Assembly (NCBI RefSeq): GCF_048403405.1
Contig: NZ_CP183129.1
DNA from: Escherichia coli
Lineage (GTDB): Bacteria > Pseudomonadota > Gammaproteobacteria > Enterobacterales > Enterobacteriaceae
Strand: one strand, 5' to 3'
DNA: 64,000 nt
The position numbers are program-made. This document shows, in pieces, positions 1 through 6,000 of this stretch. Within the stretch, counting starts at the first letter, position 1. Every line of letters begins with the position of its first letter.

Positions 1-3000
1 CAGTGAATCAGAATGAGGATTCAGTGATTCCTGCTGGATGACATACAAACAGGCTAGGGCAGAAGGTGCGCAAGTTCGTAAGGACTAGCACGGCATGACC
101 GCCATTTTTTATACCATCCTGGAGAAGGAAAACGACACCGGAGAAATTGACCATATCCCGATGCTGAAAACCTTTGTCGTGTTTAATGTCGAACAAATTG
201 ATGGCCTCTCACTGACGGCAGATACCGTTGCCCCACAAGCGACGTTTGACGCGTTGCCACAGGCTGAAAATCTGTTCTGTAACAGCGGTGCTAACATCAT
301 TGAGAAAGGACAAAACGCCTTTTTCATGCCATCAACAGATGAGGTTTTGTTACCTGAACGTCGTTTTTTTCCGATGCCGCTAGCTTTTATGCCACGGATC
401 TGCATGAGATTGTTCACTGGAGCGATGGCAAAAGTCGCCTGAACCGCGAAATGAAAGGAAGATTTAGCAGTGAAAATTATGCATTTGAAGAGTTGATCGC
501 CGAGCTGGGAAGCGTGTTCCTGATGGCGGATCTGGGGATTGTCGGATAGGTTCAGCACGAAAGTTATATTGCTTCTTGGCTGAAAGCACTGAAAAACGAT
601 AAGCGCTATATTTTTAAAGCCGCCAGGCAGCATCGAAAGCGCATCGTTATATGATGGATAAGGTCTGAACAGAGGAATAAGACGCCGCAAAGGAATGCGG
701 CCTTAACCTTATTTTTGGATCTGGCAGAGTGACATAGATTTCAATTTCCCTGCGAATGCGGACGGTAAAGAGCCCGCTCATCCTGCAAACTACATTTTTA
801 TACTGTTGATAATAGGGTATTCCTTAGTCATGGTAATAAGGCTCAGAAAGCCATATTTAGCTTTCCATAATGGAATATTATCGCCACCTTGAAGAATTCT
901 TTGTTCCGGTTACAGAATCTGCATTTTTATTGAGAGCAAGGGATTTAACCTGCCACGGCGTGGTCAGATTAAGGATGTGGGCATAGAGCGATTTTTCGGC
1001 CATTAATTTGACGCTGATGCTTACTTTAAATTGTTATTATTTTTTGCCCACTTTTTTAATCTTCCATTCGCGTTGGTATAAGGCGAAGATGTATTAAATG
1101 AGATCATTCGGCCCATCGTCCATTTTTTGTATCATGGTTCACCATACAAAACATCATCAGTTCGTTCATCAATAAGCTTTTGTAGTGGTCAACTAAAACT
1201 GGCCACGGTTTTAGAGTTTTTTCGGTATCGGTTTTCCGATTCATTTGGTGGTAATCCACCGTTATATTCGTGCGGCCTGAGTTCGCTGTAATACCCGACG
1301 ATATAACCCGTTATCGCTTGAGCAGCTTCACTGAAGCTGGTGTAGCCTGTCACCGGCATCCACTCATTTTTCAGACTCCTGAAAAAGCGCTCCATCGGAC
1401 TGTTGACGCTCCTATGTCAAGAGCGGCGATTGGCATATGCGAGGTCCGATAAAATCAATGGATAGAGCTCACGGACGATGTAGCGTTTTAGGCATCTCAG
1501 GATCTCTTTAGTCGATAGCCCTTCACCAGTTCGTCTGTCGACATAGATTCTCGTGCGCGGATCGCTACGCATACGTACAAGGGCTATTGTCCACAGGGCA
1601 TTGTTTGCTTCACGTGAGCCACCACGGTTTAATCTGTGCCTTACTGTTTTCCCTGATGATGCTGGCAGTGGATTTACGCCACAGAGCGATGCCAGGGCCG
1701 CTTCATTTTTTAAACGTTCGGGGTTATCACCCGCAACTGCCAGCAGTGTTGCAGCCGTCTGTGGCCCAACGCCAAACTGGCTACGAAGGTTACTGGCATA
1801 CTTGCGGGTCAGTTTATCTAGTGATTCGTCTAGTTCATTCAACTCTTCAGTCAGGGCCATCCATCGTTTCGCAAGGCTTCGAAGCGTACTGCACAAGGCT
1901 ATACGTAACGGTGAGTGCTCTGACACTTCGCTGTTAATGCAGGCAGTTACGCATTCGTGTGGTTTCGATTTCCAGAGTTTGTCGCGAACATCTTGCGGGG
2001 CACTAACCAGCAGTGCACGAAGCTGATTAATCGCCTGCGTACAGGCTTTTACTGCACTACGTCGGGCAACACTAATAATCCGGAGAGCCTCACATGCACC
2101 TGACTGCATTTTTGGTATGGCCTTGCTGCTCCCTGAAAGCACTGTCCGGGCTGCATTTTCTGCATCTAGTGGATCTGACTTCCCTTCAAGGCGGCGTTTT
2201 GAGCGATCTGGCCGGTTAACTTCAACAACATAAATGCTATTCTTGATGAGATAGCGTGTTAATGCGGCACCATATGTTCCTGTTCCTTCGATGCCTGCTC
2301 GTTCGAGGCTACCGAAAGAACGTGCCCAATCAAGTAGTTCCAGATAGCCCGCTTGATTTGTTTGAATAATGTGAGTTCCAAGCAGTTTACCTGCCTGACT
2401 GATAACAGCGCCGACATGAATATCAAGATGGGTATCGACACCCAGAATCACGGTTTCAGAAGATTGGCGGTCGTTTTGCATGGTTTGCCTCCAGATATTG
2501 GTAGCACAATCATCCCCATCGCAGGACAGGACACTCGGGATGCAGCACAAAGCTCCTATCAGGTCACAAACTCTGGGCCCGGTTATGCCCGGGAAATACC
2601 AGAATCGGACGACAGGTCAACACAAAGGCATTTGAGCCAATCCCAGCACGGGTCAGTCCGATCCGGTATTTGAAAGTATATTAGAATGAGTATCCCAGCA
2701 GTTTCCGCGCCTGCTCATACTTTGCCTGATCCGGTATCGCCACAGTAACTGCCTGAACTACCTGCTTGTATAGTGACTACCCTAATCACTGTGGAACATA
2801 ACCCCGGATGGCTTACCGCGTCTTTCCCATGCCATTTTCAGTGCTTTGGTGGTCAGCCTGCTGTCCGGAGAGAACGACATTGCCCACCCCACGGGTTTCC
2901 GTGCAAATAGATCGAGTACCACAGCAAGGTAAGTCCGGCGTTTACCTGTCCAGATATACGTCACATCGCCGCACCATACCTGGTCAGGCACTGTCACTGC

Positions 3001-6000
3001 AAACTGACGTCCGAGGTGATTCGGGATAGCAATATGTTCGTGTCCCCCACGTCTATATCGGTGAACAGGCTGCTGACAACTCACCAGCCCCAGCTTCCTC
3101 ATAAGATGGCCGGCAAGCCATCGTTCCATCCGGAAGCCCCTGTGTGTGGCCATTGTGGCGATACTTCTTGCATCCTCGGAGCCATGACTGAGGCCGTGTA
3201 GTTCCTGAACCTGACTGCGTAATACAGCTAGCCTGCTATCCGGCTTGTCAGGACGGTTTTTCCGGTATTTATAGCTGCTGCGGTGAACCCCAAACACGTG
3301 GCAAAGCGTGGCCACAGGATAATGCGCTCTGAGTTTCCCGATTATCGAGAGTTGTTCAGGGAATCTGACATCAAGAGCGCAGTAGCCTTTTTTAATATTT
3401 CATTTTCCATTTCAATACGTTGAAGTTTTTTCTTCAGCTCACGTATCTCAATTTGCTCCGGCGTGATAGGGGAGGCTTTAGGTGTTTTGCCGGCACGTTC
3501 ATCTCGTAGCTGCTTTACCCACCGGGTCATAGTGGAAAGTCCGACATCCATGGCATTTGCGGCATCTGCAACCGTATAGTGTTGATCCACCACTAACTGA
3601 GCGGATTCACGTCTGAATTCTGCACTGAAATTTCGTTTTTTCATTAAAGCACCAGTGTTGTCCTGAGGGTATTCATTTCGTCGAAGGTGAGTCCCAGAGA
3701 TTCACGATGGTGAATATTGTCTTCTTTCAGCGCACGCAGGGCATCTGTTAATACGGCGTAATTCAGAGACGGAATCATGATTTCGGACCTTCCTTAAACA
3801 CTTCAGCGGTTGGCTAATTTGAGGTTGATCCATTCATCAATTTCAGATTCGAGCCAGGCTACGCTGGCAGGGCCAACCTTTATTATTGAACGAGGAAAAG
3901 AGCCCCCTTTCATATACAGATAGATTTGCGAGCGTTTCAGACCGGTTTTTTCTTCGACCTGTTTCAGGCGTAATAACTGATGTGATGTCATGATTTTCTC
4001 CAGTGTAGAGTGGGGTTGGAGAAGATAAAAAAGCATAAGCGAAGGTGAAGAAGAAAGCACGTAAGCCCGTATTAAGAGTTTTTGAGTTCTTAATACGTAT
4101 TTCAGTATAATGGTGAGTTAAATCAATAAGGCACTGAAGTGGGAGAACCGCGTTCAAGTGCTGTTTTCAGTGTATCGCCGCTGAATTTGTCAGTAATACC
4201 TTCGGTAGATGCCCATTGTTCGAAAATGGATAAAAGCTTGTAAGGTTTTCCTAGTAATGGACTGATGACTTCATTATGTTTACATGAAAGCCAGAAAAGA
4301 CGAGATAAAGGGCTGGATATGCGTGTCGATGTTGGAGTGTGTTTAATATTTACATAGGCATTCATCAGCTTTTGTAGTTCAGTCAGGCGAATTACAAAAC
4401 AGGAATCTTGTGGTAATTTATAAATAGGGAAATATTCTTTGTCACTGGATTTATGAGTTTCATTCGATTAATGTTGTTATAAATCTCAGATTTTAGTTCT
4501 TCAGGTAATTACATTAGTTGTTGGCTAATTAGTTCTTTTCATGTTATTTTCTCAAACGCTTGAAATAGAGTTCTTGATAATAAAACTGAAATGCCATAAT
4601 TAATACATTGATTGCCTGTGATTGGTGGTGATATATTGATTGAGTGCGCCAGTAAGTGTTGAATTGTTACGAATTCATACCCGATCAGAGTGGTATCAAT
4701 GACCCATTTTTTTAGAATGAATATATTTATCTTGAGTGAGTGTGGTATAATTTATATGTTTAATGAAACAATGTGTATCAAGATAGCATAAACGATCTGT
4801 GAGAGAGTTTCCTATTTTTTTCAATTTAATTTTATTCTTAATTTTTGTGACTTTCCTTAATATAATTGTAGATTGAAAGTATATAGATAAATAAATGTTT
4901 CAAGATAGCGCATGGCGATAAACGTCGCTGTCGGTTAATTGTTTCTCTGTTTTTTTCTGGTTGGCTAGGTATACAGCTTCAGGTATGGTTAACCAATCGG
5001 ATTTATTTTTAATAATAGTATTTTTTGTTTTATTGTTAAACATAATTTTTCCTTATTTATATGAGTGCTAATATATTGATGGTTTTTTATAATTTATTCG
5101 TGTTTTGGTGTGAATATATGAATTGAATTGTCATATCTTTTATATGACCTATAGTCAGTCAAATAATACTTAAAACTAACTGTTAATATATAATTTCATT
5201 GTGGTCGTATAACTATAATAAATGATGTGGCAGGTTGCTTTTTATATCACCCCATGTTAAGAATTTATAGTTAAATGGATGGTGATATGTGATTATGGAT
5301 ATTTTATAGCTATCTAATATTGATTTGGTAATATATGAAAGATGAGCAGAGTAATGCTGTTCTATAAAATATAATTTATCAAATTGATCTCTCTTTATAT
5401 AAAAATCTAAATTCTTAATGATTTCTTCTGATAATCCAATGCCTCTTGATTTAATATAGGCTTCTTTTAATGTCCACATCTTATAGAAATTATGTTTTTT
5501 TTGAGTCTCGTCAAAATAAGATAGGTATTTTTTTTCTTTTTTTGAGAAATAATAATCTATAATGCTATTTATTTCTATATCACGGTTGAAATATTCAATA
5601 TCAATACCAACGGATGATGTATTTGAAATAGCGAGAGCAACACAATTATTTGAATGTGATAAATTGAAGTAAATGCTTTCCTTTGATTCGTTTAAAATAA
5701 ATGGTTTCCCGTACTCATTTTTTGAAAATCTTACATCTTCTGGTGAAATTTTTAAATAAAATGATAAAATATCGCGTAACATGACTCTTGATAGCAAAAA
5801 AATATTTCGTTGTTTTATAAAAGGGTAGTCGAATAACGATGAAATTTCATCGTTATTTAAGATGTGCATTCTGGATTTAGCTTTACTTAAACATGGTATC
5901 GTTTGTAGATTACCAATCCAGATATGCACCTCATTATCTATAAACAAGTTGCTATTACTCATTGCATTTGGCTATTAGCATAACGCTTTCTGTTGTAACC

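What the first reader, a model, noticed from the sequence alone, without database searches (positions are those of the whole stretch)
1183..3805. Nested insertion sequences: IS110-family element inside the orfB of an IS3-family element that also has two amber codons
Following the orfB reading frame across the region shows the IS110-family element (~1405-2691) inserted exactly between codons ...NCWD and NSPMERFF. Upstream of the insertion the same frame carries two TAG codons at positions expected to be Gln. The IS3 copy is therefore multiply inactivated, indicating an old decayed insertion at the edge of the siderophore block.
Basis: seen in the sequence. Interest (0 to 1): 0.3.

Follow-up and report, generated by a model that had tools for sequence, protein, structure and literature searches.

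The report
RNA-guided IS110 element inside dead IS3
An intact IS110-family jumping gene sits inside the transposase gene of a dead IS3-family jumping gene, and it got there not by chance but because its own guide ("bridge") RNA matches a conserved codon block of IS3 transposases – a known kind of mechanism, here in an apparently unnamed element with a new target site.

Summary
On the minus strand a 1,287-bp IS110-family element (window 2691..1405) splits orfB of an IS911/ISEc52-like IS3-family element exactly between codons ...GNCWD and NSPMERFF. Two Gln codons upstream are TAG (2784..2782, 2760..2758). IS3 homology stops at ~3668, the first 48 nt with the left inverted repeat are missing, and 3669-3805 is a DUF2857 gene fragment.

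The nesting is targeted, not random decay. The element's 5' non-coding region folds into a two-loop RNA with strong covariation, like the IS621/ISEc21 bridge (seek) RNA. One loop carries UGCUGGGAU, identical to the left target flank, and GUGUU, complementary to the right flank AACA. The other loop matches the element's own ends. In 115 distinct insertion contexts from genomes and metagenomes, 96 left flanks encode G(N/D)CW(D/N/E). Of 63 right flanks, 58 encode N(A/S/E)xxE. The right guide covaries with the right flank.

The concept is published for ISEc21, which hits the HSD|QGS codons 31 codons upstream. This element shares 43% identity with ISEc21 and carries no ISfinder name in the one table I could check. 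The nested structure is ≥99.7% identical in 13 E. coli genomes, and the element with its immediate flanks is ~99.8% identical in Proteus and Providencia, on an ICEPm1-like island. Verdict: ordinary, a new member of a known kind.

The parts
1405..2691 (-). Complete IS110-family insertion sequence, 1,287 bp, with no terminal inverted repeats and no target duplication. The boundary has a 1-nt ambiguity from a shared A.
   Evidence: Its removal restores IS3 orfB and the empty site seen in a Providencia relative. The ends ACTCA... and ...CTTGACATAGGAGCGTC are conserved in relatives.
1417..2481 (-). IS110-family recombinase gene, 354 aa, intact (WP_004239726.1 in RefSeq).
   Evidence: Pfam DEDD_Tnp_IS110 1.7e-21 and Transposase_20 1.2e-20. 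NCBIfam NF033542 'IS110 family RNA-guided transposase', 177 bits against a cutoff of 140. IEGTGTY, SDPLDA and ASSG align with the catalytic E, D, D and S motifs of IS621.
2492..2671 (-). Predicted bridge/seek RNA in the 5' non-coding region. It has a target-binding loop (about 2671..2594) and a donor-binding loop (about 2587..2505).
   Evidence: RNAalifold and pair counts on 14 diverse relatives gave 94.7% of cells paired and 19 of 36 pairs with compensatory changes, against 3-6 in slid controls and 0/500 shuffles. Rfam 15 has no hit.
2640..2648 (-). Left target guide UGCUGGGAU, identical to the top strand of the left target flank.
   Evidence: TGCTGGGAT occurs only twice in the 64-kb window, here and at the flank 2700..2692. 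It is invariant in relatives. L017 has GUGUUGGGAU and sits in a TTGTTGGGAC target.
2616..2623 (-). Right target guide GUGUU followed by GAC. Together they are the reverse complement of the right junction GTC|AACA(C).
   Evidence: The 5-mer before GAC covaries with the right flank in 63 contexts. There were 144/189 Watson-Crick pairs at +3..+5 against 119±4.7 in permutations, with 0/10,000 reaching the observed value.
2549..2559 (-). Left donor guide AUAGGAGC(U)UU, identical to right-end nt ATAGGAGC(G)T.
   Evidence: Sequence identity with the right end at 1415..1408. It is invariant in relatives, as is the right end. The same arrangement occurs in ISEc21: AGAAGGGC in its non-coding region and in its right end.
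2529..2537 (-). Right donor guide (C)GAGU followed by GUCC. This is complementary to the left end ACTC and, after exchange, to the target GGAT via a G·T wobble.
   Evidence: There is one compensatory change: L020 has left end ACTGA with guide UCAGU, while the others have ACTCA with UGAGU.
2678..2683 (-). -10 box TAATAT in the left end.
   Evidence: Together with TTGACA in the right end it gives TTGACA-N18-TAATAT once the ends are joined. The tA..AT pattern is conserved. A natural right-end/left-end junction contig, L124, exists. No sigma-70-like promoter was found upstream of the gene in the integrated copy.
1405..1420 (-). Right end with -35 box TTGACA and the donor segment ATAGGAGCGTC.
   Evidence: Invariant in all relatives with 62-100% recombinase identity.
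2692..2700 (-). Left half of the target, TGCTGGGAT (codons C-W-D of IS3 orfB).
   Evidence: logo from 115 contexts.
1400..1404 (-). Right half of the target, AACAG (codons N-S of IS3 orfB).
   Evidence: logo AAYNN from 63 contexts.
2692..3668 (-). IS3-family (IS911/ISEc52-like) remnant, 5' part. It holds orfA and the orfB N-terminal two thirds and lacks the first 48 nt with the left inverted repeat.
   Evidence: Alignments to IS911, ISEc52 (about 82%) and a Providencia rettgeri copy (90.5%).
3342..3644 (-). IS3 orfA, 100 aa, intact, HTH_Tnp_1.
3387..3393 (-). A6G programmed -1 frameshift motif, intact.
2782..2784 (-). Amber codon 1 (TAG where relatives have CAG/CAA), in HSD*GS next to the second catalytic D.
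2758..2760 (-). Amber codon 2 (TAG where relatives have CAG), in YTSR*FRQ.
1181..1404 (-). IS3 remnant, 3' part. It holds the orfB C-terminal 68 codons (including the catalytic E in MERFF) and the right inverted repeat ending ...CCACTACA at 1181.
3669..3778 (-). Not part of the IS. This is a 3'-truncated DUF2857 gene fragment abutting the truncated IS3 left side.
   Evidence: Pfam DUF2857 profile positions 1-35 of 174; PGAP annotation in RefSeq.

Best explanation
The 1,287-bp insert is an intact IS110-type insertion sequence that was placed in IS3 orfB by RNA-guided site-specific recombination.

Its left-end non-coding region encodes a bridge (seek) RNA of about 170-180 nt with two internal loops. 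[quoted passage not shown] In the donor-binding loop, AUAGGAGC pairs with the element's right end and (U/C)GAGU pairs with its left end ACTCA. The trinucleotides after the right-hand guides (GAC and GUC) match the non-cognate partner (donor GTC and target GAY), like the IS621 handshake guides.

The DEDD/Ser recombinase bound to this RNA joins the circular element to the target at GAY|AAY. The circle's right-end/left-end junction builds a TTGACA-N18-TAATAT promoter that drives the RNA and the recombinase gene.

The target is the conserved G(N/D)CWD|N block between the second D and the E of the IS3-family DDE transposase. The element therefore lands in, and kills, IS3-family elements. The U·G and G·T wobbles in the guides tolerate synonymous codon variation (GAT/GAC, AAC/AAT).

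Shown here: the guide-to-flank matches, RNA structure covariation, guide-to-flank covariation, and recurrent insertion at one position in diverse IS3 hosts. Inferred from homologues (ISEc21, IS621): RNA expression, RNA dependence and the chemistry.

The host IS3 copy was additionally disabled by two CAG-to-TAG changes and by loss of its left 48 nt. The whole nest was inherited with an ICEPm1-like island.
For: Exact in-frame split and empty-site reconstruction. Recombinase domains and family model.

The 9-mer TGCTGGGAT occurs in the window only at the flank and in the non-coding region, 52 nt apart. There is an 8-mer identity between the non-coding region and the right end, and the right-hand guides are the reverse complement of the two junctions.

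Structure: 94.7% of cells paired and 19/36 pairs with compensatory changes, against 3-6 in slid controls.

Recurrence: relatives with 62-97% recombinase identity from Enterobacterales, Nitrosomonas, Paraburkholderia, Methylovulum, Rhodoferax and others, plus 120 metagenome contigs, gave 115 distinct contexts. Of these, 96 left flanks encode G[ND]CW[DNE]. Of 63 right flanks, 58 encode N[ASE]xxE. With U·G wobble allowed, 104/115 left 9-mers have 0-1 mismatch to the guide.

Covariation: right guide against right flank, 0/10,000 permutations reached the observed value. L020 left end ACTGA with guide UCAGU; L017 guide change with a TGTTGGGA target.

Natural right-end/left-end junction contig L124. 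The ISEc21 non-coding region, read in L003, shares the same RNA skeleton (CUGAC..guide..UUUGUGUU..guide-GAC-CUGUCG and GUGAC..guide..guide-GUC-CUGUCC). ISEc21 has experimental proof of RNA dependence and of IS3-family targeting (PMC11187229). IS621 loop architecture is in PMC11208160 and PMC11208158.
Against: No expression or activity data exist for this element. In E. coli the exact variant is single-copy and always at the same locus, so there is no sign it has moved there.

Unlike IS621, target and donor do not share an identical core dinucleotide next to the crossover (AT/AC against TC). The left donor guide stops 3 nt short of the right end with one mismatch. So the IS621 register does not transfer exactly.

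The metagenome sample was selected with a 20-mer that contains the left guide, so left-guide variation could not be sampled there. A few contexts (about 10%) are not IS3 orfB. Rfam has no family to confirm the RNA.
Confidence: 0.85

Rival explanations
1. Chance nesting. Insertion sequences accumulate in other dead insertion sequences because insertions there are neutral. The IS110 element landed in orfB with no sequence specificity, as one more step of decay.
For: The host IS3 copy carries other unrelated lesions: two amber codons and loss of the left end. Only one copy is present in this genome.
Against: The same phosphodiester position is used in about 100 distinct IS3-family sequences that differ at synonymous and non-synonymous sites, always in the same orientation. 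The flank 9-mer is repeated in the element's non-coding region.
Confidence: 0.02
2. Site-specific insertion, but with the site read by the recombinase protein alone. On this view the conserved non-coding-region segments are protein-binding or regulatory sequences, not guides.
For: The left guide and both donor segments are nearly invariant across the clade, so most of the match is conservation, not covariation. The register differs from IS621.
Against: The right guide covaries with the right flank. There is a compensatory change between left end and right donor guide in L020, and a left-guide change in L017. The homologous ISEc21 and the distant IS621 need the RNA and can be reprogrammed through it.
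Confidence: 0.08
3. The nested unit spreads mainly as a package, by homologous recombination between IS3 copies or by IS3 transposition carrying the insert, rather than by IS110 transposition into each IS3.
For: In this window the nest arrived with the island. It is ≥99.7% identical in 13 E. coli genomes, and the element with 100 bp of each flank is ~99.8% identical in Proteus and Providencia. The 90% variant recurs on related 300-kb plasmids.
Against: Host IS3 elements differ widely: IS911-like, ISEc52, NAVAESFF-type, and betaproteobacterial types at about 65% nt identity. The split orfB cannot make transposase. This copy also lacks a left end.
Confidence: 0.05

Closest known systems
ISEc21 (IS110 family; Siddiquee et al. 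2024, PMC11187229)
   Same: It is IS110-type with the long non-coding region upstream of the recombinase gene and an RNA needed for movement. It targets a conserved codon block of IS3-family transposase genes and makes no duplication. The skeleton motifs around the guides are the same, and the right end also ends ...GCGTC with a TTGAC -35 box.
   Different: Only 43% recombinase identity. A different target: ISEc21 inserts at HSD|QGS (second D of DDE), this element at GNCWD|N, 93 nt (31 codons) downstream. Both can occupy one IS3 copy (L003). Its right target guide is 8 nt against about 5 nt here.
IS621 and its bridge RNA (Durrant 2024, PMC11208160; Hiraizumi 2024, PMC11208158)
   Same: It has a DEDD RuvC-like domain plus a Tnp domain with a serine. 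It has a 5' bridge RNA of about 177 nt with pseudo-symmetric target- and donor-binding loops. The left guides equal the top strand and the right guides are complementary to it. Handshake-like bases follow the right guides, and a promoter is rebuilt at the circle junction.
   Different: The protein is very distant (E 1e-8, C-terminal part only). The natural target is REP-like sequence rather than a gene. IS621 has an identical CT core in donor and target, whereas here the two nt before the crossover differ (AY against TC).
IS911 / ISEc52 (IS3 family, IS3 group)
   Same: The host element has orfA (HTH), an A6G -1 frameshift and a DDE orfB. Its right end is TG...CA type. It is 82% identical in nt to both and 90.5% to a Providencia copy.
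   Different: This copy lacks the left 48 nt, has two amber codons and is split by the insert. It is not a close copy of any E. coli IS.
Other DEDD elements that target mobile-element sequences: IS4321/IS5075 into Tn21-type inverted repeats, IS1383 into IS1384, ISKpn4/ISPst6 into attC
   Same: A DEDD-family insertion sequence that uses another mobile element as its landing site (details partly from my own knowledge).
   Different: Those are mostly IS1111-type with a downstream non-coding region, and they target non-coding repeats. Here the target is a protein-coding motif.

Membership tests
IS110 family (IS110 type, bridge/seek-RNA guided) | Recombinase with an N-terminal DEDD RuvC-like domain and a C-terminal Transposase_20 (Tnp) domain | tested here: met
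   PF01548 1.7e-21, PF02371 1.2e-20; NF033542 177 bits against a cutoff of 140.
IS110 family (IS110 type, bridge/seek-RNA guided) | Catalytic D-E-D-D and Ser residues present | tested here: inconclusive
   IEGTGTY, SDPLDA and ASSG align with the IS621 motifs that carry E, D, D and the serine. The first D (GVDTH) lies in the Pfam match but outside the printed IS621 alignment. No structure-based check was done.
IS110 family (IS110 type, bridge/seek-RNA guided) | Long non-coding region upstream of the recombinase gene; no terminal inverted repeats; no target-site duplication | tested here: met
   210-nt 5' non-coding region against a 12-nt 3' one. No inverted repeat at the ends. The empty site is reconstituted exactly.
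IS110 family (IS110 type, bridge/seek-RNA guided) | Structured non-coding RNA with two internal loops whose strands match target flanks and element ends | tested here: met
   Covariation-supported stems. Guide matches. Guide-to-flank covariation.
IS110 family (IS110 type, bridge/seek-RNA guided) | [quoted passage not shown] | tested here: met
   Met at sequence level only. TTGACA in the right end plus TAATAT in the left end give an 18-nt spacer. A natural junction contig, L124, exists. Promoter activity was not tested.
IS110 family (IS110 type, bridge/seek-RNA guided) | Identical core dinucleotide in donor and target (IS621 paradigm) | tested here: not met
   The target reads GGGA(T/C)|AAY and the donor GCGTC|ACTCA. 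Only a single A is shared, and ISEc21 shares none. This is a feature of the IS621 model rather than of the family as a whole.
IS110 family (IS110 type, bridge/seek-RNA guided) | The RNA is expressed, binds the recombinase and is required for movement | not testable with these tools
   Shown only for the homologues ISEc21 and IS621.
ISEc21 (as the same IS) | Same element (ISfinder rule of thumb: >95% aa / >90% nt identity) and same target | tested here: not met
   43% aa identity by tblastn. The target lies 93 nt away. Both are present side by side in L003.
IS3 family (host element) | orfA (HTH) and orfB (DDE integrase core) linked by a programmed -1 frameshift | tested here: met
   HTH_Tnp_1. 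A6G motif, and an orfB frame collinear with IS911 OrfB including HSD and MERFF.
IS3 family (host element) | Terminal inverted repeats 5'-TG...CA-3' at both ends | tested here: not met
   The right end is present (TGTAGTGGTCAAC... at 1181). The left end is absent because the first 48 nt are missing. The copy is a remnant, so this reflects truncation, not non-membership.
IS3 family (host element) | 3-4 bp target-site duplication | not testable with these tools
   The left junction was lost with the deletion.

The most novel reading that the evidence does not exclude
A widespread clade of bridge-RNA IS110 elements, unnamed in the one ISfinder-linked table I could check, lives as a specialised parasite of IS3-family insertion sequences. 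It reads a catalytic-core codon block, G(N/D)CWD|N, through short wobble-tolerant guides that absorb synonymous codon variation. It thereby acts as a natural inactivator of IS3-family transposases.

Its natural junctions always keep target bases on the left and donor bases on the right of a non-identical 'core'. This gives in-genome evidence that the top strand alone fixes the outcome of integration. LD-like left flanks (L016, L023, L037) hint at donor-loop-guided adjacent deletions.
Probability: 0.35. Interest if true: 0.55.

Novelty: new member of a known kind. Interest (0 to 1): 0.35.

Why it matters
For this window it matters little. It is a dead IS3 copy carrying a hitch-hiking IS on an ICEPm1-like island, already annotated gene by gene in RefSeq.

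More generally, it gives a second, independent natural case (after ISEc21) of an RNA-guided IS110 element aimed at the coding sequence of another IS family, at a different site and with over a hundred natural insertions. That collection is a ready-made natural data set. It shows which guide-to-target mismatches and wobbles are tolerated, how short a right guide can be, and what happens when donor and target 'core' bases differ. These questions bear on bridge-recombinase engineering.

It also shows that 'IS inside IS' calls should not be read as decay by default. And the 5' non-coding regions of such elements hold an RNA gene that Rfam 15 does not detect.

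Tried and rejected
- **Rfam scan of window 1-6000 at E≤1:** no match, so the RNA had to be defined by comparison.
rejected. There is no homology to any IS3 relative beyond 3668, no inverted-repeat partner, and the stretch is a DUF2857 fragment. A second 'TGAAGTGG' at 4135 is a chance 8-mer in direct orientation.
- **Alternative right donor guide AUGAUUGUG (2513..2505), pairing discontinuously with CACTCAT as in IS621:** rejected. This segment is the covarying 3' strand of the outer stem of the donor loop. The GAGU-GUCC segment is the one that covaries with the left end (L020) and is shared with ISEc21.
- **Reading the crossover as GATA|AC with a Y-A 'core':** this fits this element but not ISEc21 (GAT|CAG against GTC|AGT), so it is left open.
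- **Looking for an ISfinder name:** peptide and guide strings were absent from the supplements of PMC11187229. In the Durrant phylogeny table the matching cluster has an empty ISfinder column, next to 'ISEc21;ISLxx2;ISMch6'. PGAP and NCBIfam give only the family name. ISfinder itself could not be queried.
- **Looking for other empty target sites or further copies in the window:** none.
- **Literature searches for IS110 elements in IS911/IS3 beyond ISEc21:** nothing specific.
- **Not used:** the large protein searches, structure prediction and an RNA covariance model, because the domain, PDB and alignment results sufficed.

Full report
**1. What is in the sequence**

Everything lies on the minus strand. 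Reading 5'→3' on that strand, the order is as follows.
- An AlpA gene (4060..3803).
- A 44-codon DUF2857 fragment (3778..3647; Pfam profile positions 1-35 of 174).
- IS3-family orfA (3644..3342, HTH_Tnp_1).
- The A6G frameshift motif (3393..3387).
- orfB in the -1 frame down to ...[10 protein letters not shown], ending at 2692.
- A 1,287-bp insert (2691..1405).
- orfB resuming at 1404 with NSPMERFF..., running to its stop.
- The IS3 right end, ...GGCCAGTTTTAGTTGACCACTACA, at 1181.

Joining 2692 to 1404 gives an orfB that is collinear with IS911 OrfB over its whole length. It has exactly two stops, both TAG, at 2784..2782 and 2760..2758. At those positions IS911, ISEc52 and a Providencia rettgeri copy have CAG or CAA.

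**2. Boundary corrections**

Homology to IS911/ISEc52 (about 82% nt) and to the closest intact relative (90.5%; NZ_CP141743, Providencia rettgeri) begins at window ~3668. That relative starts TGTAGTGGTTTAATAAATTTGGCCACC...GCTCA|CCTCAG. The window copy lacks these first 48 nt and joins directly to the DUF2857 fragment. No inverted partner of the right end exists in 1100-4200.

So the IS3 copy has three independent lesions beside the insert-caused split: two amber codons and loss of the left inverted repeat. On the other side it abuts a 5'-truncated ClbS/DfsB fragment.

**3. The insert**

The insert encodes an intact 354-aa protein.
- It carries Pfam DEDD_Tnp_IS110 and Transposase_20 and passes NCBIfam NF033542 'IS110 family RNA-guided transposase'.
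- Its IEGTGTY, SDPLDA and ASSG motifs align with the catalytic motifs of IS621 (PDB 8WT6).
- It has a 210-nt 5' non-coding region, no terminal inverted repeats and no target duplication.

In RefSeq the protein is WP_004239726.1, 'IS110 family transposase'.

**4. The nesting is not random**

Relatives at 86-97% nt identity in other E. coli records sit at the identical point of different IS3-family hosts.
- Two sit in ISEc52 and an IS911-like copy.
- A third sits in an element whose orfB reads NCWD|NAVAESFF.
- In L004 a 52-bp deletion has occurred between the flank TGCTGGGAT and an identical 9-mer inside the element. That drew attention to the 9-mer.

TGCTGGGAT occurs only twice in the 64-kb window: at the flank (2700..2692) and in the non-coding region (2648..2640).

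A protein-seeded scan of species-representative genomes found the identical element with 100 bp of each flank (~99.8%) in Proteus mirabilis ATCC 29906 and Providencia stuartii NCTC11800. It also found relatives with 62-97% recombinase identity in Mangrovibacter, Kluyvera, Brenneria, Shimwellia, Pantoea, Xenorhabdus, Nitrosomonas, Paraburkholderia, Methylovulum, Rhodoferax and Oceanospirillales.

Together these give 115 distinct flank contexts.
- 96 of 115 left flanks translate to G(N/D)CW(D/N/E).
- 58 of 63 right flanks translate to N(A/S/E)xxE.
- 104 of 115 left 9-mers have at most one mismatch to the guide when U·G wobble is allowed.
- The last flank base is C in 59 and T in 55, i.e. both Asp codons.

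The right end CTTGACATAGGAGCGTC is invariant. The flank was not part of the search pattern, so this recurrence is not circular.

**5. The RNA**

An alignment of 14 diverse non-coding regions supports two long outer stems with abundant compensatory changes.
- 94.7% of cells are paired.
- 19 of 36 pairs have changes on both sides, against 3-6 in slid controls and 0/500 shuffles.

Each stem closes an internal loop built on the same skeleton, (C/G)UGAC–linker–left guide ... right guide–GAC/GUC–CUGUC(G/C). The two loops are as follows.
- **Loop 1 (target-binding).** The left guide is UGCUGGGAU, equal to the top strand of the left flank. A small GGC/GCC hairpin follows. The right guide is GUGUU, complementary to AACA(C). 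Then comes GAC, complementary to the donor's terminal GTC.
- **Loop 2 (donor-binding).** The left guide is AUAGGAGC(U)UU, equal to right-end ATAGGAGC(G)T. The right guide is (C)GAGU, complementary to left-end ACTC. Then comes GUCC, complementary to the target GGAT with one G·T wobble.

This is the IS621 arrangement: LTG/RTG, LDG/RDG, handshake bases, pseudo-symmetric loops (PMC11208160 and PMC11208158). It also matches the 'bottom-strand match 5', top-strand match 3'' order reported for the ISEc21 seekRNA (PMC11187229).

Covariation supports the guides.
- The 5-mer before GAC tracks the right flank: CUGUU with AACAG, GAAUU with AATTC, GCGUU mostly with AACGC, GCAUU mostly with AATGC.
- At flank positions +3..+5 there are 144/189 Watson-Crick pairs against 119±4.7 on permutation, with 0/10,000 reaching the observed value.
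- L020 has left end ACTGA and guide UCAGU where all others have ACTCA and UGAGU.
- L017 has guide GUGUUGGGAU and a TGTTGGGA target.

Joined ends give TTGACA-N18-TAATAT. The -10 pattern tA..AT is conserved, and the predicted start falls where the first outer stem begins. A 1,318-nt metagenome contig (L124) contains the right end directly abutting the left end. No sigma-70-like promoter precedes the gene in the integrated copy.

**6. Relation to what is known**

Siddiquee et al. (2024) showed that ISEc21, an IS110-type element, needs an RNA from its upstream non-coding region. [quoted passage not shown]

In L003 I read ISEc21 at HSD|QGS, with the relative of the present element 93 nt downstream at NCWD|N of the same IS3 copy. 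The two recombinases are 43% identical. The RNA skeleton motifs and the right-end terminus ...GCGTC are shared.

So the mechanism and even the idea of 'IS110 into an IS3 transposase gene' are known. What differs is the element and the site. In the Durrant et al. phylogeny table the cluster matching this protein has no ISfinder name and lies next to 'ISEc21;ISLxx2;ISMch6'. I could not query ISfinder itself. I therefore file it as a new member of a known kind.

**7. What remains open**

IS621 recombines at a CT core that is identical in donor and target. Here the two bases before the crossover are AT or AC in targets and TC in the donor. Only one A after the crossover is shared, and ISEc21 shares none.

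Every right end reads GCGTC and every left flank keeps GAY. That is the configuration expected if the top-strand exchange alone fixes the product. A 2025 preprint on another IS110 element reports the same outcome (10.1101/2025.10.25.684509). This is an inference, not a test.

**8. Activity and history of this copy**

The element looks functional: the ORF, both ends, the non-coding region and both half-sites are intact. It nonetheless occurs once per genome and always at this locus in the 13 E. coli genomes that carry it. The family as a whole is in only 36 of 5,426 E. coli genomes, against about 3,900 with IS911/ISEc52-like sequence.

The surrounding genes mark an ICEPm1-like element: TraD, TIGR03747 and TIGR03759 ICE proteins, PilL, an NRPS/PKS siderophore cluster and TonB receptors. 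The nest was therefore imported with the island.

**9. Verdict**

The finding is correct in substance and ordinary in kind. Its interpretation as passive decay should be replaced by a targeted, RNA-guided insertion into an IS3 copy that was also damaged in other ways.

Noticed in passing
L124 (metagenome contig, 1,318 nt), around locus position 1130-1180 on the reverse strand: The 3' end of the recombinase gene and the right end run straight into the left end: ...CTTGACATAGGAGCGTC|ACTCAGTCTAATATGC. The contig is about one IS length plus 31 nt. It looks like an assembled minicircle or a tandem dimer, i.e. the donor junction caught in nature.
   Followed up: partly
L037 (~6280-6330), L023 (~1270-1295), L016 (~1270-1295): In three relatives the left flank is not CWD codons but a sequence resembling the element's own right end: GTAGGAGCGTC, CAGGAGCGAC, ATAGGAGGAC. 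In L037 and L023 it lies in IS3 orfA. In L037 and L016 the right flank is still orfB N(A/S)xMER. This looks like a donor-loop-guided adjacent deletion or recombination with a pseudo-donor site.
   Followed up: partly
L069 and L151 (same sequence), junctions of the IS110 relative: The junctions are odd. The left reads ...AACTGTTGGGA-GCGTC-ACTCAG, with five extra right-end-like bases. The right end reads ...GGAGCG-CA|CCGATGGAG and lacks TCAAYG. This is an aberrant or off-register recombination product that I cannot explain.
   Followed up: no
L003 (E. coli strain C5 plasmid A), 1200-4100: One IS3-family copy carries two different IS110-family elements. ISEc21 (frameshifted) sits at HSD|QGS, and the relative of the window element sits 93 nt downstream at NCWD|N.
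   Followed up: yes
L004 (E. coli plasmid pZ1323CEC0019-2), ~2500: A 52-bp deletion lies between the target flank TGCTGGGAT and the identical guide 9-mer inside the element. It removes the left end, and that copy also has an internal stop. The guide/target identity creates a short direct repeat that is prone to deletion.
   Followed up: yes
window 1-64000 (record NZ_CP058661.1 ~4,675,000-4,739,000): The window is part of an integrative conjugative element (TraD, TIGR03747/TIGR03759 ICE proteins, PilL) with an NRPS/PKS siderophore cluster. It matches Proteus mirabilis and Providencia stuartii at ~99.8% around the IS. This is probably ICEPm1 in E. coli.
   Followed up: partly
window 1021-1176 (-), 95-~1000, 3669-3778 (-): The IS3 remnant is flanked by gene wrecks. 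One is a 5'-truncated ClbS/DfsB fragment with an internal stop, starting 5 nt beyond the IS3 right end. Another is a frameshifted ArdC pseudogene. The third is the 3'-truncated DUF2857 gene. This stretch of the island has suffered at least one deletion that also removed the IS3 left end.
   Followed up: partly
window 2492-2671 (-): Rfam release 15 gives no match at E≤1 to this covariation-supported two-loop RNA, so bridge/seek RNAs of this clade are not detected by any Rfam model.
   Followed up: partly
window 2758-2760 and 2782-2784 (-): Both nonsense codons are CAG-to-TAG (C-to-T) changes 24 nt apart, close to the second catalytic D. The rest of orfB has no frameshift or stop. I found no methylation-site context that would explain the pair.
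   Followed up: no
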